From Haliangiales bacterium (GTDB lineage Bacteria > Myxococcota_A > Polyangia > Haliangiales > Haliangiaceae), in assembly GCA_038321315.1 (NCBI GenBank), contig JBBQEX010000005.1, forward strand, positions 1 through 36,096: a stretch of 36,096 nucleotides of DNA. The letters are read 5' to 3'. The position numbers and the translations under genes are program-made. Under the pieces are notes generated by a model that searched no databases, was not told the origin of the DNA, and saw only the letters and a list, made by a program, of their open reading frames with translations. Position 1 is the stretch's first letter, and the number at the start of each line of letters is the position of its first letter. This document shows positions 693 through 25,411 of the stretch, one piece after another.

Positions 693-1400
693 ATGAAGCG
701 CGTCGTCCTCGCCTGGGTGTTCTGTGCAACCGCGTGCGGCGACGATCAGGCGAAGCCCGACGCGGGCCCGCCGGTGGTCGACATCGACAACGGCTCGTGC
801 GGCGATCAGCTGCACTTCACCGGCGAGGTCGTCGACTGGGATTCGAGCGACGCGACGTTCTGCGGCGTGTTCGAGGCCATGTTGCTCGTGCCACCCGACG
901 GCGCGATGGACACGACCGCGCCGAACGGGCGCATCGACATGTGCATCCCGGCGACGCAGGCGACGACGACGATCAGCGTCACGCCGTCGGCGAATGCGTC
1001 GCAGTGCGCGGGCTCGACGTATCCGGTGCCGGGCGCGATCATCGTGAACCGCGACGTGATCCGCGCCGGGGCGCCGTTCTCGGCGCGCCTGTTCACCGCG
1101 ACGCGCGAGACCTCGTTCTTCACGCAGATCGGCGCGCCGTACGACGCGAGCAAGGCGCAGTTGCTGGTGTTCGTCGCCGGCACGCCGCGCCCGGTGTCGA
1201 TCGCGGCGACGCACGGCGCGACCCAGGCCTTCACGAAGGCGACCGCGACCTGGGCCGCGGGCGACACCGGCACCTACGTGTTCTTCGCGAACGTCGCGCC
1301 GGGCTCGACGACGATCACGGTGACCGGTGGCGCGTTCGGCAGCGGCCCGATCGACCTCGCCGCCGGACGGATCACGGCGACGAACGTCTACGCGCTGTAG
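693..1400 (+). CDS. Hypothetical lipoprotein
   Basis: Signal peptide MKRVVLAWVFCATAC with a lipobox Cys, followed by a Thr/Ser/Ala-rich beta-type sequence. Confidence 0.6.
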   Translation: MKRVVLAWVFCATACGDDQAKPDAGPPVVDIDNGSCGDQLHFTGEVVDWDSSDATFCGVFEAMLLVPPDGAMDTTAPNGRIDMCIPATQATTTISVTPSANASQCAGSTYPVPGAIIVNRDVIRAGAPFSARLFTATRETSFFTQIGAPYDASKAQLLVFVAGTPRPVSIAATHGATQAFTKATATWAAGDTGTYVFFANVAPGSTTITVTGGAFGSGPIDLAAGRITATNVYAL

Positions 1401-2896
1401 GCGCGCCAGATCGGGAACTCGTCGCCGACCGCCGGCGCGTCGACCAGGCCGTTCTCGATCGCGCCGTCGTCGCTCTCGGGCTCGCACAGGTAGACCGCGA
1501 TCGCGCCGAGCGGCTGCGCGGTGCGCACGAGGCGCGCGCCGGCCGGGACGCTGCGCTCGCCGCGCGCCCAGGTCACCGTGACCTCGCCGACCTTGGCGGC
1601 CTCGAGGATCTTGCGGCCGCCCTCGCTGCCGAAGCCGGTGACGGTCGCGACCTCGGCGTCGATCGTCGCCGGCGCGGCCTCGCACGCGAGCCCGTGGCGC
1701 TCGAGGTGCTCGGCGACACGCGCCGGGACGACGTACGCGGCGGGCCGATCGACGACGACGGTGCCGACGAAGTTCGCGAAGTAGCGGACCGAGACGCTGG
1801 TCGGTGCGCCGTCGAGCGTGCGGGGCGTGCAGGTCGCGATGTCGATCGGCTCGGGGAACGCCTCGAGCTCGCAGCGCACCGCGATCCGATCGCGCGGCGT
1901 GCGGCAGTTCGCGACCAGCGCGACGATCTCGTCGCCGTGGGTCGAGACGTAGCGCAACGTCTCGAGCACGGTCGCGTAGGTCGTGCGCACGCGATCCGGG
2001 AAGCTGAGGTACGAGTAGCACTCGAGCAACAGATCGAGGCGCCCGGTCAGGCCGCGGTAGTTGCTGCCGAACCTCGGCTGGTGCGGATACGTCATCCAGC
2101 CCTCGGTGACCGGCGCCGTCGGATCGGCGTCGCGGCGGGCGTCGAGCGCACGCTCGTCCTCGACGAAGTTGCCGTACCAGCCGGCGAGCAGCTGGTGATC
2201 GCGCGCGAGCGCTTCGGTCACCGCCGGCATCACGTGCTGGCGCATGTAGGCGATCGGCTCGGGGCGACCGGCGGCCGACGTGTGCGGCACGTCGTACGTC
2301 ATCCAGAACCGGTGGACCGAGCCGTTGGTCGCGTGGTTGTCGATCGTCAGATCGGGCTCCCACACCTGGACGACGCGCGCCTGCAGGAGCCGCATCTCTT
2401 CCGCTTGTTGCCGCATGTAGTCGCGGTTGAGGTTGACGCCGATGCCGTTCACCCGCGTGCCGACCTTGTGCGGGCCGATCTGGCCCTCGAGCTTGGGCAG
2501 GTCGAGCTTGCGGTTCGCCGGATCGATCGCGTCGTTGCCGTCGGGGTTGAACAGCGGCACGACGACGAGCACGAGCCGGTCGAGCAGATCGCCGTGCTTT
2601 CCGTCGAGGAAGTCGCGCGTCATCATGAGCAGCGCCTCCTTGCCCTCGACCTCGCCGGCGTGGATGCCGTTGATCACGAGCACGACCGGCAGGCCGCGAG
2701 CGCGGGCCTCGGCCGGCGTGGCGATGCCGTGGTTGCTCACCACGAGCAGCGGAAGCTCCCGACCCTGCGGGCTGGTGCCGAACGAGCCGATCGCGAGCCG
2801 GCGATCGCCGCGGGCGCCGAGCGCGGCGATGAACTCCATGACGTGGGCGTGGAGCGACGTCTCGGCGTAGTTGGTGGCCTCGGCACGCGTGAGCAT
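1388..2896 (-). CDS. M14-family zinc carboxypeptidase
   Basis: INGIHAGEVEG (HxxE zinc ligands), GTSPQGRELPLLVV, NPDG and NLNRDY motifs. I chose the start at Met29 of ORF 1388..2980 (2896) because the upstream 28 codons are Arg-rich. A start at 2980 is not excluded. Confidence 0.7.
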   Translation of the reverse strand: MLTRAEATNYAETSLHAHVMEFIAALGARGDRRLAIGSFGTSPQGRELPLLVVSNHGIATPAEARARGLPVVLVINGIHAGEVEGKEALLMMTRDFLDGKHGDLLDRLVLVVVPLFNPDGNDAIDPANRKLDLPKLEGQIGPHKVGTRVNGIGVNLNRDYMRQQAEEMRLLQARVVQVWEPDLTIDNHATNGSVHRFWMTYDVPHTSAAGRPEPIAYMRQHVMPAVTEALARDHQLLAGWYGNFVEDERALDARRDADPTAPVTEGWMTYPHQPRFGSNYRGLTGRLDLLLECYSYLSFPDRVRTTYATVLETLRYVSTHGDEIVALVANCRTPRDRIAVRCELEAFPEPIDIATCTPRTLDGAPTSVSVRYFANFVGTVVVDRPAAYVVPARVAEHLERHGLACEAAPATIDAEVATVTGFGSEGGRKILEAAKVGEVTVTWARGERSVPAGARLVRTAQPLGAIAVYLCEPESDDGAIENGLVDAPAVGDEFPIWRAYSA

Positions 2897-3006
2897 GGCG
2901 GGATGGTACGTCGCGCTGTCATCGGCGATTCGCCGACCCGGACGAATTGTCACCCGACGCGACCTTCGGCGACGCGACAACGCGCGGTTAGCCGCTGGCG
3001 CGCCGC

Positions 3007-5118
3007 TTGGATGAGCTGCGATCCGTGAAACTCGTCCTCGCCGCCACCCTGTTGCTCGCCGCGACCCCGGCGTTCGCCGAAACCGAGACGCCCGCCGCCG
3101 ACGAGCCGGTGTTCCACTGCAACTCGAAGCAGGCCGAGGTCACGATCACGTTCAAGCCGGAGATGGAGATCCGCGAGCTGGTGACCTGGGCGGTCGGGTT
3201 CACCTGCAAGAAGTTCATCTTCGAGACGCGCACCGTGTCGCCCGGCAAGAAGGTCACGATCATCGCGCCGCAGAAGCTGTCGCGCGAGGACGCCTACCAG
3301 GTGTTCCTCGCCGGGCTCGAGACCGTCGGGCTCACCGTCGTGCCCAAGGGTGCGGCGCTGTCGATCGTCGACGCGCAGGGCGCGAAGAAGGAGAGCGTGC
3401 CGATCTACAAGGAGCTGCCGCCGTCGAGCGAGCAGGTCGTGCGCTACGTCGTGCGTCCGACGTTCGTGCAAGCCGAGACGCTGAAGAGCGCCTTTCTGGC
3501 GTTCAAGTCCGACGCCGGCGACGTCGTCACGATCGGCCAGGTCGTGCTGATCACCGACTACGCGAGCCACGTGCGCGACATGGCGTCGATGCTGCCGATC
3601 ATCGACGTCCCGGGCGGCACCGATGGCATCTACACGATCCCGGTGCTCCACGCCGACGCGGCCAAGCTCGCCGAGAAGGTCGACAAGCTGCTCGCGCCGA
3701 CGACCAAGGATCTCCCGGCGCCGAAGATCATGGTCGACGAGCGGACCAACACGCTGATCGTGTCCGCGAGCGAGGCCGGCTACCGGCGCGCCAAGGCGAT
3801 CGTCGAGCGGCTCGACATCGCGCTCGCGATGGAGGACGGCGCGTCGATGCACGTCTATCAGCTCGGCAGCGCGATCGCCGAGGAGCTCGCCGCCACGCTG
3901 TCGAAGGCGATCCAGAAGACCAGCGACAAGAAGGCCGGCCCGACGCCGACAACGGCGAACCCGGGCGCACCGCTCGACGCGCTGGCGACGCTCGATGGCC
4001 CGGTCCACATCATCGGCGACAAGTCGACGAACTCGCTGATCATCACGTCGAGCGCGCACGACTACCTGGCGATGAAGGAGATCGTCCGGCTGCTCGATCA
4101 ACCGCGGCGGCAGGTCTACATCGAGGCGCTGATCCTCGAGGTCGCGGTCGGCGATCAGACCAAGATCGGGACCTCGTCGCACGGCGGCACCCAGGCGGGC
4201 AACTCGCTGCTCCTCGGCGGCGTACAGACGCCGGGCACGAGCACGCTCGGCATCGGCACCACCGACGGCGCGGCCTCGCTCGCCGGGCTCAGCGGCCTGG
4301 TCGCCGGGATCGTCGGCAAGTCGCTCGCGAACTCGACGAGCCTGCTCGGCACCAGCATCCCGTCGTACGCCGTGCTGTTCAACGCCGTCGCGACCCAGGG
4401 CGACACCGAGATCATGTCGGAGCCGAGCATCATCGCGCTCGACAACGAGGAGGCCAAGTACAAGGTCGGCACCGACATCCCGTACGTGCGCGGGACCTAT
4501 CCGACGGCGTCGGCGTCGAGCCCGTTCGGCGGCACCGGCACGAACATCGATCGCAAGGAGCTCGCGCTCGAGCTCGACATCAAGCCGCACATCTCGGCCG
4601 ACGACACCGTGCTGCTCGAGATCAAGCACGACTCCAAGGACCTCGGCGACGACAGCTCGCTCGGCCCGACCTGGTCGACGCGCGAGCTCGAGACCCGCGT
4701 GCTGGTGCGCGATCAGCACACCGTGGTGATCGGCGGCCTGATGCAGACCAAGGACATCAACACGCTGACCAAGGTGCCGTTCCTCGGCGACATCCCGGTG
4801 ATCGGGCACCTGTTCAAGTACACCTCGCGGATCAAGAAGAAGACCGACCTCCTGATCCTGTTGACGCCGTACATCATCCGCGACCAGAGCGACCTCGAGA
4901 GGATCCGCGAGCGCAAGGCGCGGCAGCACGAGGAGTTCGTCGAGTCGTACGCCGCGCTGTCGACCGCCCGCTACGTGCCGTCGATCGACTACACGCGCAA
5001 GCGCGGGCTCGTCGAGGAGATCAACCACGCGGTCGCCGACGTCGAGCACGACATCGACAGCCGCAACACGATGACGCCGCCGCAGACCGTGGCGCCGGGT
5101 CCGGTCGAGATGCGATAA
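3007..5118 (+). CDS. gspD: Secretin of the type II secretion / type IV pilus family (GspD-like: N0 domain plus C-terminal secretin domain)
   Basis: Signal peptide (KLVLAATLLLAATPAFA). N0-like region (KVTIIAPQKLSREDAYQVFLAGLETVGLTVVP). Secretin signature VPFLGDIPVIGHLFKYTSRIKKKTDLLILLTPYIIR. Gly/Ser/Thr-rich barrel loops. A GTG at 3025 is an alternative start. Confidence 0.7.
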   Translation: MDELRSVKLVLAATLLLAATPAFAETETPAADEPVFHCNSKQAEVTITFKPEMEIRELVTWAVGFTCKKFIFETRTVSPGKKVTIIAPQKLSREDAYQVFLAGLETVGLTVVPKGAALSIVDAQGAKKESVPIYKELPPSSEQVVRYVVRPTFVQAETLKSAFLAFKSDAGDVVTIGQVVLITDYASHVRDMASMLPIIDVPGGTDGIYTIPVLHADAAKLAEKVDKLLAPTTKDLPAPKIMVDERTNTLIVSASEAGYRRAKAIVERLDIALAMEDGASMHVYQLGSAIAEELAATLSKAIQKTSDKKAGPTPTTANPGAPLDALATLDGPVHIIGDKSTNSLIITSSAHDYLAMKEIVRLLDQPRRQVYIEALILEVAVGDQTKIGTSSHGGTQAGNSLLLGGVQTPGTSTLGIGTTDGAASLAGLSGLVAGIVGKSLANSTSLLGTSIPSYAVLFNAVATQGDTEIMSEPSIIALDNEEAKYKVGTDIPYVRGTYPTASASSPFGGTGTNIDRKELALELDIKPHISADDTVLLEIKHDSKDLGDDSSLGPTWSTRELETRVLVRDQHTVVIGGLMQTKDINTLTKVPFLGDIPVIGHLFKYTSRIKKKTDLLILLTPYIIRDQSDLERIRERKARQHEEFVESYAALSTARYVPSIDYTRKRGLVEEINHAVADVEHDIDSRNTMTPPQTVAPGPVEMR

Positions 5119-5125
5119 CGGTGGC

Positions 5126-5893
5126 GTGGTCCGGGTCCTCCTCGTCTTCGTGCTGCTCGGTGCGCATGTCGCCGCGGCGCAGATCGTCAATGCGCAGAGC
5201 GCGCTCGCAGCGCCGTCCAAGGGCAACGGCGTCGTCGGCTCGGTCGAGGCCAAGATCGACTGGCGCGAGGGCAACAACTCGCTGATCGACACCAGCGCGA
5301 CCGCCACGCTGGTCGTCCGCCACGATCGCATCCTCGTCCTGGGCGTCGCGCGCGGCGGCTACGGCGAGAGCCGCGGCCAGGTGCTCACGAAGAAGACGTT
5401 CGAGCACCTGCGGACCCGCATCAAGCTCGACCCGCGCTGGCGCTGGGAGGGCTACGCGCAGCACGAGTACGACCAGTTCCGCCGGATCGCGCTGCGCGCC
5501 CTGGTCGGGACCGGCCCGGCCCTCGTGGTGTTCGACCGGCCCGCCGGCGGCATGATCTCGGGGCTTTCGCTGATGTTCGACTACGAGCGGCTCGATCAGC
5601 GGCGCGGCACGATCGACGCCGGCAAGCGCTACGGCGTGTTTCGCGCGTCGGCGTACCTCGCGGGGCACGAGCAACTCGCGCCGAGCGCGCTGCTGATCCA
5701 GACCATCTACGTCCAGCCGCGGTTCGACGACGCGAGCGCGTATCGCGTGCTCGGCGAGCTGACGCTGCTCAACAAGCTGTCGTCGCGGATCGCGCTGACC
5801 AACGGCTTCTCGGTGTCGTACGACGCGACGCCGCCGGTCGGCGTCAAGCGCTACGACGCCGAGCTCAAGGTCGGTGCGGTCGTGTCGTTTTGA
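5126..5893 (+). CDS. DUF481-family (YdiY-like) outer-membrane beta-barrel protein
   Basis: GTG start 7 nt after the secretin stop. Signal peptide MVRVLLVFVLLGAHVAAAQ. Alternating hydrophobic beta pattern. C-terminal ...GAVVSF ends in Phe, the usual outer-membrane-protein signal. Confidence 0.55.
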   Translation: MVRVLLVFVLLGAHVAAAQIVNAQSALAAPSKGNGVVGSVEAKIDWREGNNSLIDTSATATLVVRHDRILVLGVARGGYGESRGQVLTKKTFEHLRTRIKLDPRWRWEGYAQHEYDQFRRIALRALVGTGPALVVFDRPAGGMISGLSLMFDYERLDQRRGTIDAGKRYGVFRASAYLAGHEQLAPSALLIQTIYVQPRFDDASAYRVLGELTLLNKLSSRIALTNGFSVSYDATPPVGVKRYDAELKVGAVVSF

Positions 5894-8666
5894 CCGGGGT
5901 CGCCGGCTTGATCGGGGTCGGAGCTGCGGGCTTGACGAGCTTCATGCCACCGAGCCAGCCGCGCAGCTCGGGCTCGACGAGCTTGCGCCCGGCGATGCAC
6001 TGATCCATCTCCTCGATCGCCTGGCGCACCGCCCGGTCGCCGGCGGGTAGCTTGCCGAACGTCGCGAGGACGTACGCGGCCGTCTCGTCGCGGCGCGTGG
6101 CATCGCAGCTGCCGGTGAACAGCGCCGCGAGCTCGGCGCCGATCGAGTCGGCGGTGCCGTCCGCCGGGATCCGCTTCATGATCGCGGCGGTGTGATCGCG
6201 GAAGAACTGCTGCGCGACCCGGCGGTTGGCCTCGGTCGTCGCGTCGTCGAGCATGCCGAGGGTCTCGCGGATGTCGAGCTTGTCGTCGAGCACGAGGCCG
6301 AGCGCGGCGACCTGGCGCTTGGGGTCGCGCACGCGGGCGAGCGCGATGAACATCTCGCGCCGGCGCGTGCGATCGGCCTCGGTGTAGATGTCCTTGATCA
6401 GCCGCTCGAACAGCTCGGGCTTTGCATCGGTCGCGAGCTCGAGGACGATCGGCCGCACGCCCTGCGGCAGCGCCCGCCAGTCCGCGGCGAGCCGGGTCGC
6501 CTCCTCGAGGATCTTCGGCGCGCGACCGTAGCGGCCGACCGTGCGGATCAGGTCGCCGCGGCTGGCCTCGGCGTCGAGTTCGTCGGTCGGGCGCGACACG
6601 AGGCCGACCTGATCGGCGCCGGGCCCGAACGTCTGTCGAAGCCACTGCTCGTACTTCGGGCGCAGGTCGTCGGGGACGGCGTCGCTGACGTGCTGCGGCA
6701 GCTCGACCGCCTCGGCGATCGTGAAGCGATCGTTGCCGGCGAGCAGCTTCGGCACGAACGACATCGCGAGCGCGAGCGGCAGCTTCGCGGTCCCGGCGTA
6801 GGTGCGCGCCTCGTAGGCGATCGACAGCCGCTCGTTCCACGCGAGCTTGTCCCACGCGACGTCGCGCAGCGCGGTGAGCTGCGCCGCGGTGTACGCCGAG
6901 TGGTAGTAGCCTCGACCGTCGGCGTTCGTGACCATCCACGCCGGACACTTGTCTCCCGCCAGCGCGATCGTCGCGCTCGGCTCGGCCATCAGCGTGCAGT
7001 CCTGGCGCGACTTGCCGGCGCTCTCGTAGTGCACGCAGACCGGCAGGATCCAGGGCCTGGTGTTCTCCGGAGGCGGCGCCCCCGGCGGCAAGTAGCGGCG
7101 CTGCTCGAGCACGACGCGCAGGCTGCTCGGGTGGGTGCAGTCGAGTCTGGCGGTGATCTCGGGCTCGCCGGCCTGATCGAGGAACGTCGCGAACGCCGGC
7201 GCGACGTCCTTGCCCGCGACCTTGCTGATCGCGGCGGCGAAGTCCGCGGACGTCGCGTTGCCGTGCTGCTTCGACTTCAAGTAGGCGCGCACGCCGTCGC
7301 GAAACCGATCGCGGCCGACGTAGCTCTCGAACATGTCGAGGATGCTCGAGCCCTTGTCGTACGTGATGCCGTCGAACGCGCCGAGGATGTCGTCGACCGC
7401 GTCGATCGGCTGGCGGATCTTGCGCGCGCTGACCAGCGCGTCGTCGTCGAGCGCCGAGTGATGGCGGCCGACCTCGGCGAGCTCGTCGTGCCAGCGCGGG
7501 TCGAACTTCGCGCTGATCTGGTGCTCGAGCCAGTTCGCGAAACCCTCGTTGAGCCACAGGTCATCCCACCACGCCATCGTCACGAGATCACCGAACCACT
7601 GATGCGCGATCTCGTGCGCGGCGACGTAGATCCAGCGGTGCTCGCGCTCCTTGGAGGCCTTGGCGTCGAGCAGCATGTCGCGCTCGCTGAACGTGATGAG
7701 CCCGGCGTTCTCCATCGCCGAGAACCCGACGGTCACCGGGATCGCGAGGAAGTCGAGCTTGGCGTACGGGTAGGGCATCCCGAAGAAGTCCTCCTCGAGC
7801 TCGAGGATCTTCGGCGCGGTCTTCGCCGCCCACGCGGCGTCGGCCGCGCGACCCTTGAGCGCGAGGATGTGGATCGGCGTGCCGCCCGTGGTCGCGCCGG
7901 CATCGACGGTCTCGAACGGGCCGACCCCGAACGCGAGGAGGTAGGACGGCAGCGGCTTGGTCGGGGCGAACTCGACGCGCTTGCGCTTGCCGTCGTCGCC
8001 GAACGGCTCGGACTTCACGATCGGCGTGTTGGCGACCGCGACGAGATCCTTGGGCACCTCGAGCGCGAGTCGCCACGGCACCTTGACGTCGGGCTCGTCG
8101 AGGCAAGGGAACACGCGGCGGGCGTAGATCGCCTCGAACTGCGAGTAGACGTAGGTCTCCTTGCCGACGGTCTGCTTGAACGCGCCAGCGGTGTTGAGCA
8201 GCTCGTAGTCGGCGGCGAAGTCGATGGTCAGCGTCCACGTACCGGCGTCGAGCGGCGAGGCGGCGCGCAGCTCGAGGAGATCCTCGCCGTGCGCGGTCGC
8301 GACGAGCTGGACGTCGTGCGCGTGGCGGCTGTCGAACGGATCGCCCGACGACGCGACCGCGCGCGCGATCGCGAGCTTGCGCCCGTGGAGCCAGATCGTC
8401 GACGAGCGCTCGGCGACCGCGCCGGCGATCTCGATGCTCCCGGTGAACCCGGCCTTCGCCGGATCGATCGCGAGCGACACGCGGTACTCGCTCGGCACGA
8501 AGTTGCGCGGCAACCGCAGCTTGGGCTCCGGCGGCACGAGCCCGAGCGGCGACACCGGTGCGACCGGCGCGTCGGTCGTGCTGACGACGATCTTGCCGCC
8601 GGTCACCGCGGGCTTCGCGGGCGTGCAAGCCGCGAGCGCAACTGCCGACGCGATCGCGAGCTTCAT
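5865..8666 (-). CDS. pepN: M1-family aminopeptidase N, lipoprotein form
   Basis: HEIAHQWFGDLVT (HExxH), WLNEGFA (the second zinc ligand Glu) and GAMEN-like SAMENAG. The real start MKLAIASAVALAACTP (lipobox) is at 8664-8666. The upstream 137 codons of ORF 5865..9077 are Arg-rich junk. Confidence 0.85.
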   Translation of the reverse strand: MKLAIASAVALAACTPAKPAVTGGKIVVSTTDAPVAPVSPLGLVPPEPKLRLPRNFVPSEYRVSLAIDPAKAGFTGSIEIAGAVAERSSTIWLHGRKLAIARAVASSGDPFDSRHAHDVQLVATAHGEDLLELRAASPLDAGTWTLTIDFAADYELLNTAGAFKQTVGKETYVYSQFEAIYARRVFPCLDEPDVKVPWRLALEVPKDLVAVANTPIVKSEPFGDDGKRKRVEFAPTKPLPSYLLAFGVGPFETVDAGATTGGTPIHILALKGRAADAAWAAKTAPKILELEEDFFGMPYPYAKLDFLAIPVTVGFSAMENAGLITFSERDMLLDAKASKEREHRWIYVAAHEIAHQWFGDLVTMAWWDDLWLNEGFANWLEHQISAKFDPRWHDELAEVGRHHSALDDDALVSARKIRQPIDAVDDILGAFDGITYDKGSSILDMFESYVGRDRFRDGVRAYLKSKQHGNATSADFAAAISKVAGKDVAPAFATFLDQAGEPEITARLDCTHPSSLRVVLEQRRYLPPGAPPPENTRPWILPVCVHYESAGKSRQDCTLMAEPSATIALAGDKCPAWMVTNADGRGYYHSAYTAAQLTALRDVAWDKLAWNERLSIAYEARTYAGTAKLPLALAMSFVPKLLAGNDRFTIAEAVELPQHVSDAVPDDLRPKYEQWLRQTFGPGADQVGLVSRPTDELDAEASRGDLIRTVGRYGRAPKILEEATRLAADWRALPQGVRPIVLELATDAKPELFERLIKDIYTEADRTRRREMFIALARVRDPKRQVAALGLVLDDKLDIRETLGMLDDATTEANRRVAQQFFRDHTAAIMKRIPADGTADSIGAELAALFTGSCDATRRDETAAYVLATFGKLPAGDRAVRQAIEEMDQCIAGRKLVEPELRGWLGGMKLVKPAAPTPIKPATPVKTTRPHRP

Positions 8667-9490
8667 GCCGGGACCGTAGCACCGCAGCACTGCTTCCACT
8701 TCTTCATCGAGCCACACACGCACAGGTCGTTGCGCCCCGGCTTCATCGGCTTGTTGCGCGCCATCTCGCGCGCCGGCGGGAAGGCGATCGGGCGCGTCGC
8801 GCGACCGAGCTCCTCGGCGGCGGTGAACCGCGCCGCGATCTCGTCGAGCTTCGCCGGCGTGAACCAGTCGAGGGCCTCGGCCTCGAGCTTGCGGGCGAGG
8901 GCGTAGTAGCGCCGCGGGTCGTGCGCGTGATCGAAGTGCGGGACGCGGCGATAGCCCGGAGGCACGTCGACGATCGCGGTCCCGCCGGCGAACCCGTAGG
9001 TGCCGACATCGCGCGCCGGCAACAGCGGCCACGCGATCCCGAACAGCCGGTACGCGACCGCCGCGAGCCCGGACCACGCGCGCGCCTCGTTCTGGTTGAA
9101 CGGATGCAGGTACGCCGCCTCGTCGGCGGGCGCGACCGACTCCGGTACGCCGTACGGCAACCCGACCGGCGTGCCGTAGTTGGGCAGGGCCGGATCGCCG
9201 CTCACCGCGTGGATCAGCTCGTGAACGCAGAACCCGAGCAGCCGGCTATGGATGCACGCGCCGTCGCGCACCGCGACCCAGCGCACCGCGCCGCCGAGTT
9301 GCTGCTGGACGCGCCACAAGGTCGGCGCCGCGAGATCCCAGATCACGGTCTGGCCCCAGCCGCGCATCGCGTCGTCGAACCGGTACAGCGCCGCGATGCC
9401 GGCGGTGCGCTCCTCTACAGACAGCACCTCGTGGCACCGGCACAGGCACGGAAACGGCGTCTGGACTGCATCGACGACCGTGGCCGGCAT
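8663..9490 (-). CDS. Putative zinc-dependent protein with an HExxH motif and a C-terminal SEC-C metal-binding motif
   Basis: FCVHELIHAV (HExxH) and C-terminal CVCGSMKKWKQCCG (SEC-C motif). Its stop overlaps the pepN ATG as ATGA. Start chosen at MPATVV (9490) because the region just upstream is AT-richer and intergenic-like. Confidence 0.55.
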   Translation of the reverse strand: MPATVVDAVQTPFPCLCRCHEVLSVEERTAGIAALYRFDDAMRGWGQTVIWDLAAPTLWRVQQQLGGAVRWVAVRDGACIHSRLLGFCVHELIHAVSGDPALPNYGTPVGLPYGVPESVAPADEAAYLHPFNQNEARAWSGLAAVAYRLFGIAWPLLPARDVGTYGFAGGTAIVDVPPGYRRVPHFDHAHDPRRYYALARKLEAEALDWFTPAKLDEIAARFTAAEELGRATRPIAFPPAREMARNKPMKPGRNDLCVCGSMKKWKQCCGATVPA

Positions 9491-9515
9491 TGCGCGCAGT
9501 GTATTACCGATAGCC

Positions 9516-10349
9516 ATGACCGCGTACGCGTTCCGCATCGTCAACGTGTTCACCGTCGGAGCCGACAAGTTCTCCGGCAATCCACTGTGCGTCTTCGAGG
9601 ACGCGCGCGACCTCACCGACGCGCAGATGCAGCAGCTCGCGCGGCAGATGAACCTGTCGGAGACCACGTTCGTGCTGCCGAGCGCGACCGCCGACGCGCG
9701 CGTCCGCATCTTCACGCCCGGCTTCGAGATGCCATTCGCCGGCCACCCGACGCTCGGCACCGCGAGCGTCGTCGCGCAGGGCCGCGCCGCGATCGCGTTC
9801 GAGATGCGCGCCGGTCGCGTCGAGGTCACCGCCGCCGACGGCACGTACACCCTGCGTGCCGCGCGCGCGCCGGTCACCCGCGCGGTCGAGGCCACGCGCG
9901 ACGAGCTCGCGAGCATGGTCGGCCTGCCCGCCGGCTCGGTGTCCGGCGAGCCACGCTGGGTCGACACCGGCGTCGAGCAGCTCGTGATCCCGGTCGCGTC
10001 GTCGGAGCTCGTGCGCGCCGCCAGGCCGGTGCTCGCGCTGATCGAGCGCTGGGGCTTCTCCGCGGCCCGCCAGGAGGCGATGGCCTACCTGGTCGCGCCC
10101 GACGGCGTCGTGCGCTTCTTCTTCACGTCGAACGGCGCGCTCCTCGAGGATCCGGCGACCGGCTCGGCGTGCGCGAACCTCGGCGGCTGGCACCTCGCGA
10201 TGGGAACCCCACTGCCGTTCACCGCCACGCTATCGCAGGGTGACGCGGTCGGCCGGCCCTCGCGCCTCGACCTCCGGGTCGACACCGATCGCAACATCTT
10301 CGTCAGCGGCGCGGTGATCGAGCTCGGCCGCGGGACCGTCGACCTCTAG
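9516..10349 (+). CDS. PhzF-family phenazine-biosynthesis-like isomerase
   Basis: MTAYAFRIVNVFT...GNPLCVF...LSETTFVLP...FTPGFEMPFAGHPTLG are conserved PhzF/YddE motifs. ATG at 9516 is in the frame of ORF 9252..10349. Confidence 0.75.
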   Translation: MTAYAFRIVNVFTVGADKFSGNPLCVFEDARDLTDAQMQQLARQMNLSETTFVLPSATADARVRIFTPGFEMPFAGHPTLGTASVVAQGRAAIAFEMRAGRVEVTAADGTYTLRAARAPVTRAVEATRDELASMVGLPAGSVSGEPRWVDTGVEQLVIPVASSELVRAARPVLALIERWGFSAARQEAMAYLVAPDGVVRFFFTSNGALLEDPATGSACANLGGWHLAMGTPLPFTATLSQGDAVGRPSRLDLRVDTDRNIFVSGAVIELGRGTVDL

Positions 10350-12926: not shown

Positions 12927-13763
12927 TCATCGCGTGACGGTATAGCCCGCGCGCGCGAGCAGGGTAGGGAGGCCGCCGTCGCCGAGCAGGTGGCCGAGGC
13001 CGACCGCGACGAACGTCGTGCCGGTCGCGTCGACGTAGGCCTCGATCTTCGGCAGCCACACCGTGTTGCGATCGGAGATCAGGTGCGAGCTGTCGACCAG
13101 CAGCTTGATCTTCAGCGCCTCGGCGTCGCTCGCGAGGTACGCGGCCTGCGTCTGATCCTGGCTGCAGCGGATCGAGCGCCGCGCGTGGATCGCGTCCGCG
13201 AGGTCGCTCGGCGCGACCGCGGCGTCGAGCGCGGCGAGCTGCACCTCCCAGGTCTCCAGTGCATCGATCGGCAGGTGGTGCTCGCTGGCGCGTGCGGTGA
13301 GCGCGTCGTCCATCGACGGCTTCGGCGCCGGCGCGACCTTCGCCATCAGCTTGATCATGGCGTACCACGGCTTGGCGTGACGGAGATCCTCGGTGTGGAT
13401 CGTGCCGTGCAACGCGTCGTCGAGCGCCCACCAGTCGTCGTTCGCGAGCAGGCCATCGAGCGACTTGCCGCCGTACGGGATGCGCGCGAGCTCGATGAAC
13501 TTGTCCTTGTCGGGCTCCTTGTCGCCGAGCTCCGACGCGTAGTGCTGTGCGCTCGCGAGCGCGTCCCACACCGGCTTGGCGACGTCGGGCGTCGACGCGG
13601 TGTGGATCGTGCCGAACAGGATCACCGCGCCGGGCGCGCCGGCCTTGGTGACGTGCCACAGGAACGGCGCGCCGTGCGGAGCGCTGTACTTCGGCAGCTC
13701 GCAGCGCGGTGCCGGCGTGCCGCACGCCGCGAGGGCGAGCACGAGCAGCGCGCGGGTCACCAC
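12927..13763 (-). CDS. TraB/GumN (TIKI-like) family lipoprotein
   Basis: Signal peptide with lipobox VVTRALLVLALAACG. Motifs LFGTIHTAS (GTxH) and VAVGLGHLLG (GxGHL) are characteristic of the TraB/GumN/TIKI family. The GTG start overlaps the stop of the upstream gene as GTGA. Confidence 0.65.
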   Translation of the reverse strand: MVTRALLVLALAACGTPAPRCELPKYSAPHGAPFLWHVTKAGAPGAVILFGTIHTASTPDVAKPVWDALASAQHYASELGDKEPDKDKFIELARIPYGGKSLDGLLANDDWWALDDALHGTIHTEDLRHAKPWYAMIKLMAKVAPAPKPSMDDALTARASEHHLPIDALETWEVQLAALDAAVAPSDLADAIHARRSIRCSQDQTQAAYLASDAEALKIKLLVDSSHLISDRNTVWLPKIEAYVDATGTTFVAVGLGHLLGDGGLPTLLARAGYTVTR

Positions 13764-14869
13764 AGCTTGTGCGGCCCGACGAGCGCGTCGACCTCGTCGT
13801 CGCTCGGTCCGGATTTCAGCTTGATCGTCGCGACGCCATCGGTCCCGACGGTGACGTCGAGGACGGTCGGCGCCGGCGCCGGCTTGGCGGTCACCTTGCC
13901 GTTCCCGGCGAGCACGTCGACGTCGACCGAGCGCGAGACCGGAACGTCGACGAGCGGGCAGCGCGGTGGCGTCTTCGCGTCGCCGGCGACGCACAGCGTC
14001 AACAGCTTGGCGTGCTCGAACTCCGAGCGCGTGTCGTCGTCGTTCGTCGAGCTCATCGAGTTCTGCGTGTTCTCGACGTTGCGCCAGATCCACCAGACGT
14101 CGTGCTTGCCGACCGACTTCTTCTCGACCTTGTCGATGAACGTCGCCTCGACGCCCTGCATCCGATCGATGTCGAGCTCGGCATCGGCGACGTAGCGGCC
14201 GGCATCGTCGAACAGGTACGCGTAGCTGCCGCGACCCCGCAGCTCCCACAGGTGGAGCCCGGCGAGCGGCGCCGGCGTCTTCTCCTCGCAGGTCGCGTCC
14301 GCGGCGTCGAAGTGTGGCGTGAACGCGTTCTCCTTCAGGCACGCGCACGGCTTCTGGTTCGGCTTGCACGCGAGCCCGGCGACCTCGGCTGGCGCCTTGG
14401 GGTTCTGCCCGAGGCGCACGATCGCGTCGCCGACCGTCTTGTTCGGGCGCAGCGCGACCGACGCGAGGTACGCGCGCACCGCGCCATCCTTGTCGCCCGA
14501 CTTCTCGAGCACGGTGCCGAGGTTGTAGAGGGCCGCGGCCTTCACCTTCTTGTCGATCGCGACCGCGACGGCCTCCTCGTCGGCGATCCGCGCCTTCTTG
14601 AAGTCGCCGGCGTTCATCGCCGAGAACCCCAGCTCGCCGAGCGCGCGCGCGTCGGCCGGGACCGCGACGAGCGCGGCCTCGAACTCGGGTACCGCGGCGG
14701 CCCACTGCTTGGTCTTCTGCGCCGCCCAGCCGCGCTTCATGTGCTGCTTGAACTCGGTCTTGGCCTTGGCGGTCGGCGGCGGCGGCGCCTTGTGTGGTCT
14801 GGGATCGGCGACCGCGGCCGAGGCGATCGCGAGGACGAGGACGACAGCGCGCTTCATCGCCTTCACCAT
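13757..14869 (-). CDS. Secreted TPR-like, Cys-rich protein (paralog B of a tandem pair)
   Basis: Signal peptide MKRAVVLVLAIASAAVA. TPR-like block WAAAVPEFEAALVAVPADARALGELGFSAMNAGDFKKAR. Conserved Cys pattern CKPNQKPCACLK…ATCEE…LCVAGDAKTPPRCPL. C-terminal SGPSDDEVDALVGPHKLW is shared with the gene at 14863-16056. Confidence 0.6.
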   Translation of the reverse strand: MVKAMKRAVVLVLAIASAAVADPRPHKAPPPPTAKAKTEFKQHMKRGWAAQKTKQWAAAVPEFEAALVAVPADARALGELGFSAMNAGDFKKARIADEEAVAVAIDKKVKAAALYNLGTVLEKSGDKDGAVRAYLASVALRPNKTVGDAIVRLGQNPKAPAEVAGLACKPNQKPCACLKENAFTPHFDAADATCEEKTPAPLAGLHLWELRGRGSYAYLFDDAGRYVADAELDIDRMQGVEATFIDKVEKKSVGKHDVWWIWRNVENTQNSMSSTNDDDTRSEFEHAKLLTLCVAGDAKTPPRCPLVDVPVSRSVDVDVLAGNGKVTAKPAPAPTVLDVTVGTDGVATIKLKSGPSDDEVDALVGPHKLW

Positions 14870-16056
14870 AGCTTGTGCGGGCCCACGAGGGCGTCGATCT
14901 GTTCGTCGCTCGGGCCCGACGTCAGCTTGATCGTGACCACACCGTCGGCGCCGAGCGCGACGTCGAGCAGCGTCTCGGTCGAGCTCGACTTCTTGGCGAC
15001 CTTGTCGTCGGGCCCGAGGGTCTCGCTCTCGAGCTTGCGCTGCTTCGGGATCCCGACGAGCGGACAGCGCGTCGGCTGCTTGGCCTCGCCGACCACGCAG
15101 ATCGTGACCTCGTGCCCGGTCAGGATCTCGGTCGTGACGTCGTCGTCATCGCCGGTCGACTCGCTCGAGTTGTCGATCGACGTCTCGATCCACAGCACCT
15201 GGTGGGTCCCGAGCTTCTTGACCTCGATCCTGTCGACCGTCGTGGTCTGCATCGCGCGGCGCTGTTCGTCCTCGAGGCCGAGGTCGGCGATGTAGCGACC
15301 GGCGTCGTCGAACAGGTAGTCGAACTCGGTGTGCGTGCGGTCGTCGTCTTCCTGCTTCCACACGTGGAAGCCGGGCGCGGGTGGCGGACCCTCGGTGCAC
15401 TTCGCGACGTCCGACGTCATCTTGCCCATGAACGCGTCCTGCTTCATGCAGTCGCACGGCTTCTGATCGGGCTTGCAGACCTCGGTGACCGCGACCGCCG
15501 GATCCTTGCCGAGCTTGCCGACCGCCTCCATCACCGTCTTGTTCGGGCGCAGCGCGAGCGACGCGACGTACGACTTGAGCGCGCCGTCCTTGTCGCCGGT
15601 CTTCTCCTGCACGGTGCCGAGGTTGTAGAGGCCCGCGGCCTTCACCTTCTTGTCGACCGCGATCGCGATCGCCTGCTCGTCGGCCTCGCGCGCCTTCTTG
15701 AAGTCGCCGGCGTTCATCGCCGACCAGCCGAGCTCGGTGAGCGCGCGCGGATCACTCGGGATCGCGACGAGCGCGGCCTCGAACTCCGGCACCGACTCCG
15801 CCCACTTCTTGGCCTTCTGCGCCGTCCAGCCTGCCTTCAGGTGCTTCTTGAACTCGGCCTTCTGCTCGGCGGTCGCCGGGGCGTGCTTGTGCGTCCGCTT
15901 CTTCGACGGCGCCGCGGAGCCCGAGCCCGCCTTCGGCGCCTCGACGACCTTCGGCGCGACCGCGCTGCCGCTGCCGCTGCCGGTCTTCGCCGGATCGTTC
16001 GCAGGTGCCTTGCCGCAGCCGACCGTCAACACCGCGACCGCGAGCAGGAGCTTCAT
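14863..16056 (-). CDS. TPR-like, Cys-rich lipoprotein (paralog A of a tandem pair)
   Basis: Lipoprotein signal MKLLLAVAVLTVGCG. Gly/Ser/Ala/Pro/Lys-rich linker. The same TPR-like block and Cys pattern (CKPDQKPCDCMK…AKCTEG…ICVVGEAKQPTRCPL). C-terminal SGPSDEQIDALVGPHKLW. ATG at 16054-16056. Confidence 0.65.
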   Translation of the reverse strand: MKLLLAVAVLTVGCGKAPANDPAKTGSGSGSAVAPKVVEAPKAGSGSAAPSKKRTHKHAPATAEQKAEFKKHLKAGWTAQKAKKWAESVPEFEAALVAIPSDPRALTELGWSAMNAGDFKKAREADEQAIAIAVDKKVKAAGLYNLGTVQEKTGDKDGALKSYVASLALRPNKTVMEAVGKLGKDPAVAVTEVCKPDQKPCDCMKQDAFMGKMTSDVAKCTEGPPPAPGFHVWKQEDDDRTHTEFDYLFDDAGRYIADLGLEDEQRRAMQTTTVDRIEVKKLGTHQVLWIETSIDNSSESTGDDDDVTTEILTGHEVTICVVGEAKQPTRCPLVGIPKQRKLESETLGPDDKVAKKSSSTETLLDVALGADGVVTIKLTSGPSDEQIDALVGPHKLW

Positions 16057-16069
16057 GGCGCGGACGGTA

Positions 16070-16738
16070 CTACGGCTGTCGCGGGAAGCCCTCGAACAGG
16101 TAGCCGCGATCGGAGCCACCGTCGATCAACCGGACCGCGCAGTTGTGCGGATTGGTCTCGGCCTCGAACCACTCGGGCGACAGGTGACACCACATCATGA
16201 CGAACGCGCGCAGCGTCACGCCGTGGCAGATCACGACGAGGTTCTTGATGCCGTGCTCGATGTGATCGCGATGGAACGTCCCGAACGCCTGGTGGATGCG
16301 CTTGGCGACATCGAACCGGCTCTCGCCCATCGGCATACGTGCCCAGAACTTGCCGCCGAACCGACACGTCATGTCGTAGTACGCGTGCTCCTGCGGGAAG
16401 CGCACCGGCAGATCCTCGTCGGGCACGCCGTCGAACAGGCCGAACTGTTGCTCGCACAGGAGGATGTGCTCGACGCGATCGGTGATCCACGGACCGCAGG
16501 TCTCCATCAGCGCGTCGGCGGTCTGGCGCGTGCGCAGGTACGGGCTCACCCACAGCCGCACGTGCGGGCGCGAGTCACCGAGATCCGCGGCGAGGCTCGC
16601 GGCGACGCGGCGGCCGGCCTCGCGCGCCTGCTCGACGCCGCGATCCGACAGCGGCACCGCGTGATCCGCCGTGGTCTGGTGGATCTGCGCGTTCAGGTTG
16701 CCGAGCGACTCGCCGTGACGCACGAGGATGATCCGCAC
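16070..16738 (-). CDS. Histidine phosphatase superfamily protein (phosphoglycerate-mutase-like branch)
   Basis: VRIILVRHGESLGN (the RHG catalytic motif) near the N-terminus, and a later HG in the GHGIKNLVVICHGVT region. GTG start 14 nt downstream of the previous gene's stop. The remaining upstream codons of the 830-aa ORF are junk. Confidence 0.65.
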   Translation of the reverse strand: MRIILVRHGESLGNLNAQIHQTTADHAVPLSDRGVEQAREAGRRVAASLAADLGDSRPHVRLWVSPYLRTRQTADALMETCGPWITDRVEHILLCEQQFGLFDGVPDEDLPVRFPQEHAYYDMTCRFGGKFWARMPMGESRFDVAKRIHQAFGTFHRDHIEHGIKNLVVICHGVTLRAFVMMWCHLSPEWFEAETNPHNCAVRLIDGGSDRGYLFEGFPRQP

Positions 16739-18273: not shown

Positions 18274-18308
18274 ATTTGTCCCCCAACGCACGGTGCGCGC
18301 GGTTCGGT

Positions 18309-24640: not shown

Positions 24641-25354
24641 TCACGACTTGTCGATCGGTGGAAACGAGCCGCTGCTGAGCGACGGCAGACCGCCGGTCGC
24701 GGGCTTCGCGGGCGCGGGTGCGTCGGGAGCCGTCGACATCGGGAACGTGTTCTCCGGCAGCGGGCCCTCGAGCGCGGGTGGCATGGTCATGCCGAGGCGA
24801 TCGGCGAGCACGCGCCAGCCGTGGAACGCCCAGGCGCCGCCGTAGACGATGACCGCGGCGACGGAGAGCCGGCCGACCTCGCCGGAGCTGCCCTTGGCGA
24901 ACAGCGCCTGGAACGTCATCACGAGCGCGAGCAGCCCGATCGCACCGACGAACAACAGGTTGAGTCCGGCCATCAGGCGGCGCACGCCGGGAAACTCGCG
25001 CTGGTTGGTGCGCATGAGGAGGATGACGTGGGTGACCCAGATCGCGAGGCCGGGCACGAGCAACGCGAACCCGGCACGAAACATGTGGCTGCGGTCGTCG
25101 TCCTTGCTGACCAGCGACCACAGGACGATCGTGCCGCCGAGCAGCGCGATCTGGCAGCCGGCGGTCGCGAAGTAGCCGAGCGCGACCTTGACGCCGAGGT
25201 GAGGGTCGGCGACCGGCTCGCGATGCTGGCGCCAGCGCGCGAGGATGTAGAGCACGAACGGGAGTGTGAAGAAGATGTAGCCGGTCGCGCTCGACGCGAT
25301 CGACGGCAGCATGATCCGCGCGCCGAGGGAGTCGTCCGAGAACAGGCCGAGCAT
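24641..25354 (-). CDS. Hypothetical integral membrane protein (about 5-6 TM helices)
   Basis: Start MLGLFSDD at 25352-25354. Several hydrophobic helices. Pro/Ala-rich C-terminal tail. Upstream codons of ORF 24641..26962 are Arg-rich junk. Confidence 0.5.
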   Translation of the reverse strand: MLGLFSDDSLGARIMLPSIASSATGYIFFTLPFVLYILARWRQHREPVADPHLGVKVALGYFATAGCQIALLGGTIVLWSLVSKDDDRSHMFRAGFALLVPGLAIWVTHVILLMRTNQREFPGVRRLMAGLNLLFVGAIGLLALVMTFQALFAKGSSGEVGRLSVAAVIVYGGAWAFHGWRVLADRLGMTMPPALEGPLPENTFPMSTAPDAPAPAKPATGGLPSLSSGSFPPIDKS

Positions 25355-25411
25355 TGTCGGCACGATATACGAATCCCGGAACCGAACGGCCGGGACGTTG
25401 TCACGAGTCCG

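What the first reader, a model, noticed from the sequence alone, without database searches (positions are those of the whole stretch)
3007..5893. Orphan secretin with a translationally close DUF481 outer-membrane protein and no other T2SS or T4P genes nearby
A full-length secretin (N0 domain plus secretin signature) is flanked by a divergently oriented M14 carboxypeptidase gene. A DUF481 beta-barrel gene starts 7 nt after it. No GspC/E/F/G-M or Pil genes occur within the 36 kb. A secretin paired with a dedicated outer-membrane beta-barrel could represent a pilotin-like or accessory outer-membrane partner, or a non-canonical secretin use.
Basis: partly seen in the sequence, partly recalled or inferred. 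Interest (0 to 1): 0.5.

Follow-up and report, generated by a model that had tools for sequence, protein, structure and literature searches.

The report
Stand-alone GspD secretin plus DUF481 neighbour
This is a normal-looking type II secretion outer-membrane channel gene (GspD) that, as in all its close relatives in Kofleriaceae myxobacteria, sits away from the rest of the secretion genes, and the small outer-membrane barrel gene 7 bases behind it is a neighbour only in one narrow lineage, so it is ordinary rather than a new secretin-partner system.

Summary
A full-length secretin (3025/3007-5118, +) is followed after 7 nt by a DUF481 gene (5126-5893, +). A divergent M14 and a convergent M1 peptidase gene flank the pair, and the 36 kb hold no Gsp/Pil/Tad genes.

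The secretin passes NCBI's GspD equivalog model and aligns over its N-terminal domains (most of N0, N1-N3) and pore with solved GspD structures. It belongs to a "short-form" clade from Kofleriaceae-type assemblies. All 15 loci of that clade that I could inspect encode a stand-alone secretin. The sister "long-form" clade includes one gene inside a complete gspC-D-E-F-G...M operon. The window gene is therefore a loner gspD, an arrangement already built into T2SS detection models.

DUF481 follows the secretin in only four related lineages of one clade. It is absent at the syntenic locus of a clade member and at ten other orphan loci. None of 80 DUF481 loci from metagenomes has a secretin nearby; they usually lie between an OmpA-domain gene and the same M1 peptidase. 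DUF481 models as a 12-strand barrel with no lipobox, so it is not pilotin-like.

Still open: where this genome's gsp genes lie, and whether a second GspD exists. Interest is low.

The parts
1388..2980 (-). M14 zinc carboxypeptidase gene, divergent from the secretin. The ORF runs to the TTG at 2980. The likely start is the ATG at 2896, which leaves a divergent intergenic region of about 110-130 nt.
   Evidence: Pfam PF00246 9.8e-16. The 75%-identical orthologue in L001 aligns from residue 29. The sequence around 2896 was read. The same gene flanks the secretin in L001, L013 and L095.
3025..5118 (+). GspD-class secretin, 697 aa from GTG 3025 (703 aa if TTG 3007 is used). It has a Sec signal peptide and is not a lipoprotein.
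   Evidence: NCBIfam TIGR02517 GspD equivalog, 396.6 bits against a cutoff of 351.35. Pfam N0 + Secretin_N x2 + Secretin. phmmer against PDB finds GspD structures 5wq7, 5wq8 and 6hcg at E about 1e-56 to 1e-58; the best aligns query residues 77-636. The identical 697-aa public protein is P0001.
3160..3351 (+). N0 domain, the part of GspD that contacts GspC of the inner-membrane platform.
   Evidence: Pfam PF21305, 34.2 bits against a cutoff of 27. It is well conserved across the family, with two conserved Cys in the N-terminal region. N0 identity between short-form and long-form secretins is 0.68.
3397..4140 (+). N1-N3 ring-building periplasmic domains.
   Evidence: Pfam Secretin_N, two stretches, the best at aa 282-369. 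Contiguous alignment with N1-N3 of E. coli K-12 GspD 5wq7.
4387..4881 (+). Secretin pore domain.
   Evidence: Pfam PF00263 1.8e-45, profile positions 2-169 of 169.
4882..5118 (+). C-terminal tail of about 75 aa (motif RERK.R..EEFVES...DY.RKRGL.EEIN) plus the stop codon.
   Evidence: The tail is conserved across the whole family, including orphans without DUF481 and the operon-encoded long form P0073. It is therefore not a DUF481-specific feature.
5119..5125 (+). 7-nt spacer between the secretin stop and the DUF481 start. No terminator-like site was found there, so co-transcription is likely.
   Evidence: Sequence read. Terminator scan. The equivalent gaps in related loci are 6, 9 and 17 nt.
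5126..5893 (+). DUF481 outer-membrane protein, 255 aa. It has a signal peptide (MVRVLLVFVLLGAHVAAA|Q), a conserved N-terminal peptide QIVN.Q.ALA, and then a 12-strand beta-barrel.
   Evidence: Pfam PF04338 6e-24. The AlphaFold2 model has mean pLDDT 83.7 and 12 strands. The top Foldseek PDB matches are 12-14-strand barrels: NanC, PcoB, OmpG and autotransporter beta-domains. Family alignment A1.
5865..8660 (-). M1 aminopeptidase, a lipoprotein-type N-terminus (MKLAIASAVALAAC). It is convergent with DUF481 and overlaps its 3' end by 29 nt. This gene, not the secretin, is the conserved neighbour of DUF481.
   Evidence: Pfam Peptidase_M1_N + Peptidase_M1 + ERAP1_C. It lies downstream of DUF481 in 15 of 80 metagenome loci and in every secretin-linked locus.

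Best explanation
Secretin. The gene at 3025-5118 encodes an ordinary type II secretion secretin (GspD). It belongs to a 'short-form' clade from Kofleriaceae-type assemblies whose genes were stand-alone ('loner') in every locus examined. I infer that it forms the usual multimeric outer-membrane pore and docks through its retained N0-N3 domains on a GspC/E/F/L/M platform encoded elsewhere in the genome. I lean towards it being the genome's only GspD-class secretin, serving a gsp operon that lost gspD. It could instead be a second secretin alongside an operon-encoded one.

DUF481. The DUF481 gene encodes a small monomeric 12-strand outer-membrane barrel. In most Kofleriaceae it is a free-standing gene between a divergent OmpA-domain gene and the convergent M1 aminopeptidase. 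In the ancestor of the window's clade, a rearrangement placed M14 and the secretin immediately upstream of it. The two outer-membrane protein genes are now probably co-transcribed. The pairing is synteny inherited within one lineage, not a conserved secretin-partner module.

Shown: family assignments, domain content, orphan status in the window and in related loci, the distribution of the adjacency, and the barrel fold. Inferred: pore formation, docking on a distant T2SS, co-transcription, and the direction of the rearrangement.
For: GspD identity:
- TIGR02517 equivalog above cutoff.
- Alignment over most of N0, N1-N3 and the pore with solved GspD structures.
- 50% identity and collinearity over 95% of its length, including the family-specific C-terminal tail, with P0073.
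- P0073 lies in a complete operon: T2SSC-secretin-T2SSE-T2SSF-pseudopilins-T2SSJ-T2SSK-PilM_2(GspL)-T2SSM (L097).

Loner state is conserved:
- Fifteen distinct short-clade loci (window, L001, L002, L004-L009, L011/L012, L013, L095, L096, L098, L099) have no gsp genes in the flanks held, by Pfam context, motif scans and tblastn with the ten L097 Gsp proteins other than GspD.
- Their neighbours are otherwise unrelated to one another.

Phylogeny (outgroup-rooted NJ tree):
- Long clade containing the operon copy: 100% bootstrap.
- Short clade containing all full-length orphans: 87%.
- Window clade: 100%.

Precedent and indirect support:
- A loner gspD is an accepted arrangement. Denise et al. [quoted passage not shown]
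- T2SS is reported as common to 17 Myxococcota genomes, including Haliangium (PMC10196010).
- The window encodes a MYXO-CTERM-tagged protein. That tag class is reported as T2SS-dependent in M. xanthus (cited in PMC12475490).

DUF481 adjacency is lineage-specific:
- It occurs only in the window (=L010), L011/L012, L013/L014 and L095. The members with full-length sequence fall in one 100%-bootstrap clade.
- It is absent at syntenic L001.
- None of 80 DUF481 metagenome loci has a secretin. Twenty-five have an OmpA-like gene (upstream and divergent in nearly all) and 15 have the M1 peptidase downstream.
- The secretin's C-terminal tail and DUF481's N-terminal peptide are conserved whether or not the two genes are linked.
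Against: - The rest of the T2SS was not located for this genome, so the link to a distant platform is inferred only.
- Only one long-clade locus could be inspected (n=1 for 'long form = operon-encoded').
- The junction between secretin and DUF481 has stayed tight (6-17 nt) while the proteins diverged to about 55% identity and other genes were inserted around the pair in L013. That is compatible with selection for co-expression.
- The short clade evolves clearly faster than the long clade: pairwise identity 0.53-0.65 against 0.71-0.91 per domain. This could signal a changed role rather than just wider taxon sampling.
Confidence: 0.7

Rival explanations
1. In the window's clade, the secretin and the DUF481 barrel form a real two-gene functional module. 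DUF481 would act as an accessory outer-membrane partner, for example helping insertion or stabilisation of the secretin or conditioning the surrounding membrane.
For: The gaps are tight (6, 7, 9 and 17 nt) and no terminator-like site lies between the genes. The adjacency is retained in four lineages that have diverged to 53-78% (DUF481) and 55-76% (secretin) identity. In L013 it survived insertion of CorA and a response-regulator gene around the pair. Coarse-grained simulations reported E. coli YdiY as a hotspot for lipid flipping at its surface (bioRxiv 10.1101/2024.12.09.627556). I take YdiY to be the E. coli DUF481 protein from my own knowledge; I did not test that here.
Against: DUF481 is missing at the syntenic locus of clade member L001. 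The other ten orphan loci lack it, as does the operon copy. None of 80 DUF481 loci has a secretin. DUF481 keeps its ancestral neighbour, the M1 peptidase, so the adjacency is explained by a single rearrangement. Neither protein shows a clade-specific sequence feature. DUF481 has no lipobox and no pilotin-like fold. No paper links DUF481 functionally to a secretin.
Confidence: 0.12
2. The short-form orphan secretin is a diverged paralogue that works independently of the T2SS platform. It might be an outer-membrane nozzle for slime or another polymer, or a gated permeability channel, while an operon-encoded long-form GspD does protein secretion.
For: The short and long clades are reciprocally monophyletic, and both carry Kofleriaceae labels. 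The short clade evolves faster and lacks the Gly/Pro/Ala-rich linkers of the long form. No conserved neighbour exists at any orphan locus. M. xanthus GspD is reported as the slime nozzle needed for gliding, and M. xanthus has three secretin paralogues with distinct roles (PMC12475490).
Against: N0-N3, the platform-docking domains, are all retained, and N0 is among the better conserved regions. I could not show a long and a short form in the same genome; the accessions I could retrieve come from different assemblies. Long forms are 71-91% identical to each other, while other proteins of these lineages such as the M1 peptidase are about 50-60% identical to the window's copy. That suggests the long clade is simply a narrower taxon, which fits orthologues in different lineages.
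Confidence: 0.15
3. The secretin is not really orphan, because a gsp operon lies just outside the window, upstream of base 1.
For: The secretin starts only 3 kb from the left edge of the window, so the window cannot exclude this.
Against: The syntenic locus L001 shows 10 kb upstream of the secretin, including a homologue of the window's gene 693-1400, with no gsp gene. The ten loci with fuller flanks (about 2-10 kb upstream, 10 kb downstream) show none. In the one operon seen, gspC and gspE directly abut gspD, and that is not the case here.
Confidence: 0.04

Closest known systems
T2SS secretin GspD (E. coli K-12 GspD 5wq7, V. cholerae EpsD 5wq8, Klebsiella PulD 6hcg)
   Same: Same domain order: N0, N1-N3, secretin pore, C-terminal tail. 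It scores above the GspD equivalog cutoff and aligns over nearly its full length at E about 1e-56 to 1e-58.
   Different: It is encoded alone, not beside gspC/gspE. Sequence identity to these structures is low. Whether it needs a pilotin is unknown.
Operon-encoded long-form GspD from a Kofleriaceae-type metagenome contig (P0073 in L097)
   Same: 50% identical and collinear, including the family-specific C-terminal tail. It belongs to the sister clade.
   Different: P0073 lies inside a complete gspC-M operon and carries Gly/Pro/Ala-rich linker insertions in the linkers around N2/N3 and longer termini, 847 aa against 697 aa. The window's gene is stand-alone.
Loner gspD genes in T2SS detection models, and orphan secretin XqhA of Pseudomonas aeruginosa
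   Same: A GspD-class secretin encoded away from the other gsp genes. The MacSyFinder T2SS model sets gspD as a loner (PMC6668835). From my own knowledge, not checked here, XqhA is an orphan secretin that can serve the Xcp system.
   Different: Here the loner state characterises a whole clade, in all 15 loci examined. Whether an operon-encoded secretin coexists with it, as XcpQ does with XqhA, is unknown.
Myxococcus xanthus GspD (slime nozzle; MYXO-CTERM protein export)
   Same: A myxobacterial GspD-class secretin. The window also encodes a MYXO-CTERM protein.
   Different: M. xanthus GspD is about 90 kDa (PMC12475490), closer to the long form. No functional data exist for the Kofleriaceae proteins, and I did not test orthology to the M. 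xanthus gene.
DUF481 / E. coli YdiY outer-membrane barrel
   Same: Pfam PF04338 match over the whole profile, a signal peptide, and a predicted 12-strand barrel. YdiY is described as an abundant OMP of unknown function.
   Different: The Kofleriaceae subfamily has an invariant N-terminal peptide (QIVNVQGALAKPP) after the signal peptide. Its function is unknown.
Secretin pilotins (PulS/OutS/AspS, PilF/PilW class)
   Same: Only that the gene lies next to a secretin gene.
   Different: From general knowledge, pilotins are small outer-membrane lipoproteins. DUF481 has no lipobox cysteine, is an integral beta-barrel, and is not conserved next to the secretin.

Membership tests
GspD (T2SS secretin) | Sequence scores above the curated GspD equivalog model and better than the PilQ, MshL or SctC models | tested here: met
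   TIGR02517 gives 396.6 bits against a cutoff of 351.35. PilQ gives 188 bits (cutoff 284), MshL 132 and SctC 101, all below their cutoffs.
GspD (T2SS secretin) | Domain architecture N0 + N1-N3 + secretin pore | tested here: met
   Pfam N0, Secretin_N x2 and Secretin. Contiguous alignment of residues 77-636 with E. coli GspD 5wq7 and 49-632 with V. cholerae 5wq8.
GspD (T2SS secretin) | Encoded with, or functionally linked to, gspC/E/F/G-M | tested here: not met
   No gsp genes in the 36-kb window or in the flanks held for 15 short-clade loci. A link to a distant operon could not be tested. Loner gspD is allowed by the MacSyFinder T2SS model.
GspD (T2SS secretin) | Forms a multimeric gated outer-membrane pore used for protein secretion | not testable with these tools
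   This needs biochemistry or cryo-EM and secretion assays.
Pilotin / secretin accessory lipoprotein (for DUF481) | Small lipoprotein with a lipobox cysteine after the signal peptide | tested here: not met
   The N-terminus is MVRVLLVFVLLGAHVAAA|QIVNAQ with no cysteine. The same holds across 34 aligned homologues.
Pilotin / secretin accessory lipoprotein (for DUF481) | Gene conserved next to its cognate secretin | tested here: not met
   DUF481 follows the secretin in 4 of 15 distinct short-clade loci, all in one clade. None of 80 DUF481 loci has a secretin.
Pilotin / secretin accessory lipoprotein (for DUF481) | Physical binding to the secretin (S-domain) | not testable with these tools
   No multimer prediction tool was available. 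The secretin's C-terminal tail is conserved regardless of DUF481 linkage.
DUF481 (PF04338) outer-membrane barrel | Pfam match above the gathering score over the full profile | tested here: met
   85.7 bits against a cutoff of 21.1, profile positions 6-210 of 210.
DUF481 (PF04338) outer-membrane barrel | Signal peptide plus a transmembrane beta-barrel fold | tested here: met
   AlphaFold2 model with pLDDT 83.7, pTM 0.77 and 12 strands. Foldseek matches NanC, PcoB, OmpG and autotransporter barrels at probability 1.00.

The most novel reading that the evidence does not exclude
Kofleriaceae carry a distinct, fast-evolving clade of stand-alone GspD-like secretins. These would coexist with the operon-encoded GspD and serve a non-T2SS export task, such as a slime or polymer nozzle or a gated channel. 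In one lineage this secretin would have recruited a co-transcribed DUF481 barrel as an outer-membrane partner.
Probability: 0.1. Interest if true: 0.55.

Novelty: new member of a known kind. Interest (0 to 1): 0.2.

Why it matters
For annotation, the result means that a secretin without neighbouring gsp genes in Kofleriaceae/Haliangiales assemblies should be read as the normal loner gspD of that group. It should not be read as a broken or exotic system, and the DUF481 neighbour should not be annotated as a secretion component.

The one modestly interesting point is evolutionary. A whole clade of GspD genes has left the gsp operon, lost the linker insertions and evolves faster than the operon-encoded sister clade. 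If both forms turn out to coexist in one genome, this would be a natural case of secretin duplication and specialisation in gliding, predatory myxobacteria. That is relevant to the recent claim that myxobacterial GspD is also the slime nozzle.

Tried and rejected
1. Pilotin or accessory-partner reading of DUF481. Rejected for three reasons: no lipobox, a 12-strand barrel fold, and an adjacency that is not conserved.

2. Reading the source contig beyond the window. The secretin P0001 is not in the contig index, and the DUF481 protein returned only a 2.4-kb Logan contig. The upstream flank of the window therefore stayed unread.

3. Finding the rest of the T2SS in the same genomes.
   - Motif scans and tblastn with ten L097 Gsp proteins (all but GspD) over 796 kb of fetched loci found only L097 itself.

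4. Testing whether long and short secretins share a genome, using NCBI accession proximity. All 19 accessions retrieved belong to different assemblies, so this was uninformative. Matching contig lengths between the two forms also gave nothing.

5. Literature search for a secretin-DUF481 link or the phrase 'orphan secretin'. No functional link was found. Sah et al. 2020 on MYXO-CTERM could not be read.

6. Promoter and terminator scan of 2700-6200. It found no promoter-like site and two weak terminator-like sites, a number consistent with chance. This is uninformative in a 70% GC genome.

7. Rfam and tRNA scans of the window found nothing.

8. No query I could design would have tied gsp genes to the same genome without further contig look-ups, and those were exhausted.
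Full report
**Observation**

The window is about 70% GC, so mechanical ORF lists are full of spurious frames. I called genes by the GC1/GC2/GC3 pattern.

The + strand ORF 3007/3025-5118 has GC3 of 0.97. It matches Pfam type_II_gspD_N0, two Secretin_N stretches and Secretin. The identical public protein is 697 aa, which corresponds to the GTG start at 3025 and a plain Sec signal peptide.

The stop codon is at 5116-5118. The next ORF begins at GTG 5126, so the 7-nt gap is real. That ORF, 5126-5893, matches DUF481 over the full profile.

A divergent M14 carboxypeptidase lies upstream (1388-2980, - strand, likely start 2896). A convergent M1 aminopeptidase lies downstream (5865-8660, - strand).

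The rest of the window encodes these genes:
- an FGE-sulfatase fragment
- PhzF
- a SEC-C-motif protein
- an OMP barrel
- a metallophosphoesterase
- two TPR proteins
- a DUF2330 protein
- a Kelch protein
- ABC transporter parts
- a VWA protein
- an AAA+ protein
- a polysaccharide deacetylase
- an EEP nuclease

No prepilin or GspE motif occurs in any frame. tblastn with ten Gsp proteins (all but GspD) of a related operon finds nothing in the window.

**What the secretin is**

It scores 396.6 bits on NCBI's GspD equivalog model against a cutoff of 351. It stays below the cutoffs of the PilQ, MshL, HofQ and SctC models. It aligns contiguously, from within N0 to the end of the pore domain, with solved T2SS secretins (5wq7, 5wq8, 6hcg, 5zdh, 5wln) at E values from about 1e-58 to 1e-47.

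More than 1000 homologues exist. The top 120 are 48-63% identical, and the named ones come from Kofleriaceae, 'Deltaproteobacteria', Myxococcales or other loosely labelled MAGs, where they are auto-annotated as GspD.

**Genomic context of relatives**

- L001/L003 (secretin 59-60% identical) is syntenic with the window: M14 | secretin | M1 | SEC-C | PhzF. Only 78 nt separate the secretin from M1, and there is no DUF481.
- L002, L004-L009, L096, L098 and L099 (49-56% identical) each hold a solitary secretin among unrelated neighbours. They have no DUF481 and no gsp genes within the flanks held, about 2-10 kb upstream and 10 kb downstream.
- L097 (P0073, 847 aa, 50% identical and collinear with the window protein) lies in a complete operon: T2SSC-secretin-T2SSE-T2SSF-pseudopilins-T2SSJ-T2SSK-GspL-like-T2SSM.

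**Phylogeny**

I took as outgroup the 37-43%-identical tier from an exhaustive representative search and built an NJ tree. It splits the family into two clades:
- a long-form clade (778-957 aa) that contains the operon copy
- a short-form clade (674-790 aa) that contains every full-length orphan, including the window

Bootstrap support is 100% for the long clade, 87% for the short clade and 100% for the window's own clade.

The extra length of the long form is Gly/Pro/Ala-rich linker sequence plus longer termini. The C-terminal tail motif is shared by both forms.

Long forms are 71-91% identical to one another per domain, and short forms 53-65%. N0 remains one of the better conserved parts, with 0.68 identity between short and long forms.

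The window gene is therefore a loner gspD. This arrangement is common enough that the MacSyFinder T2SS model sets gspD as a loner (PMC6668835).

**What DUF481 is and whether it is a partner**

The protein has a Sec signal peptide without a lipobox cysteine. An invariant peptide, QIVNVQGALAKPP in most homologues, follows the signal peptide. The protein models confidently (pLDDT 83.7) as a 12-strand barrel that resembles NanC, PcoB, OmpG and autotransporter beta-domains.

Homologues form a large Kofleriaceae family of about 257 aa. The secretin-DUF481 adjacency recurs in these loci:
- L011/L012: DUF481 78% identical, gap 17 nt
- L095: the closest full-length secretin at 63%, gap 9 nt, same M14 and M1 flanks
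- L013/L014: about 54% identical, gap 6 nt, with CorA and a response-regulator gene inserted around the pair

The members with full-length sequence fall in the window's 100%-supported clade, which also contains the DUF481-less L001.

A metagenome scan with the DUF481 alignment returned 80 loci at 30-57% identity. None has a secretin, although 69 have at least 300 nt of upstream sequence. Twenty-five have a roughly 630-aa OmpA-domain gene, upstream and divergent in nearly all, and 15 have the M1 aminopeptidase downstream, convergent in all but one.

The conserved neighbour of DUF481 is therefore the M1/SEC-C/PhzF block. The simplest history is a single rearrangement that placed M14 and the secretin upstream of DUF481 in one lineage, followed by loss of DUF481 from that site in L001.

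The tight junction does suggest co-transcription in this lineage, which is why I keep a small probability for a lineage-specific functional coupling.

**Mechanism**

I infer that the protein forms the standard secretin pore and docks through N0-N3 on a T2SS platform encoded elsewhere. Three indirect points support this:
- All platform-facing domains are retained and conserved.
- T2SS is reported as common to Myxococcota, including Haliangium (PMC10196010).
- The window's DUF2330 protein carries a MYXO-CTERM tag (TIGR03901, 24 bits against a cutoff of 20). That tag class is reported to reach the cell surface through the T2SS in M. xanthus (cited in PMC12475490).

I could not determine whether the same genome also has an operon-encoded long-form GspD. 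Accession numbers of five long and fourteen short forms all point to different assemblies, and the contig look-ups were exhausted.

Long forms are far more similar to each other than other proteins of these lineages are to the window's copies; the M1 peptidase, for example, is about 50-60% identical. I therefore lean towards the two forms being orthologues in different lineages, which would make the orphan the sole GspD. A paralogue with a changed role remains possible. One candidate role is the slime-nozzle function shown for M. xanthus GspD (PMC12475490).

**Verdict**

'Orphan secretin' is right, and the orphan state is clade-wide, but it is a known kind of arrangement. The idea of a dedicated DUF481 partner is not supported. 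This is a new member of a known kind, of low interest, with one open and checkable question: where the gsp genes are, and whether a second GspD exists.

Noticed in passing
window 16753-18621 (-): The DUF2330 protein (622 aa) ends in a MYXO-CTERM sorting tag (TIGR03901, 24 bits against a cutoff of 20, aa 592-621). In M. xanthus this tag class is reported to be exported in a T2SS-dependent way, so it hints indirectly that the organism runs a T2SS.
   Followed up: partly
L097 9063-22201 (JGI 3300081523 contig Ga0671494_0000027): A complete Kofleriaceae-type gsp operon, gspC-D-E-F-G-(280 aa)-H/I-J-K-L-M followed by an AsmA-like gene. Its long-form GspD (847 aa) is 50% identical to the window's orphan. 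Sigma-54 activators and a HAMP histidine kinase lie upstream.
   Followed up: partly
L015-L056 (DUF481 metagenome loci), e.g. L017 1960-3837 (-), L031 628-2541 (-), L044 7810-9735 (-): In most Kofleriaceae contigs, DUF481 lies divergent from a roughly 590-640 aa protein whose only recognisable part is a C-terminal OmpA domain. It is convergent with the M1 aminopeptidase. This envelope-gene neighbourhood is conserved without any secretin.
   Followed up: partly
window 5180-5227 and alignment A1: The DUF481 subfamily has a nearly invariant peptide (AQIVNVQGALAKPP) immediately after the signal peptide. AlphaFold2 gives it low confidence. It could be a plug or a periplasmic interaction motif of unknown role.
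   Followed up: no
proteins P0308, P0334, P0340, P0342, P0344, P0345, P0358 and others (distant hits): Giant secretin-family proteins of 2,500-5,500 aa turned up among the distant hits. P0358 (3695 aa) has one N0 domain, 35 Secretin_N repeats and a C-terminal Secretin pore domain. Their origin and function were not examined.
   Followed up: partly
window 13757-14869 (-) and 14863-16119 (-): Two adjacent TPR-repeat genes with very similar Pfam TPR hit patterns overlap by 7 nt. They may be tandem paralogues, but I did not compare their sequences.
   Followed up: no
window 27407-29014 (+) and 24821-27391 (+): A protein with a 'choice-of-anchor Q' C-terminal domain (NF041518) and a Chlam_PMP repeat follows a large VWA-domain protein. 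Both are probably cell-surface proteins.
   Followed up: no
window 3118-3120 and 3202-3204 (Cys32 and Cys60 of the 697-aa secretin): Two cysteines in the N-terminal region (Cys32 just before N0, Cys60 within it) are conserved across the Kofleriaceae secretin family, long and short forms alike. They may form a disulfide.
   Followed up: no
window 8663-9967 (-) versus 9252-10349 (+): The mechanical ORFs of the SEC-C-motif gene and the PhzF gene overlap heavily. The orthologues in L001 (274 aa and a later PhzF start) indicate that the real SEC-C gene ends near 9490 and that PhzF starts near 9480.
   Followed up: partly
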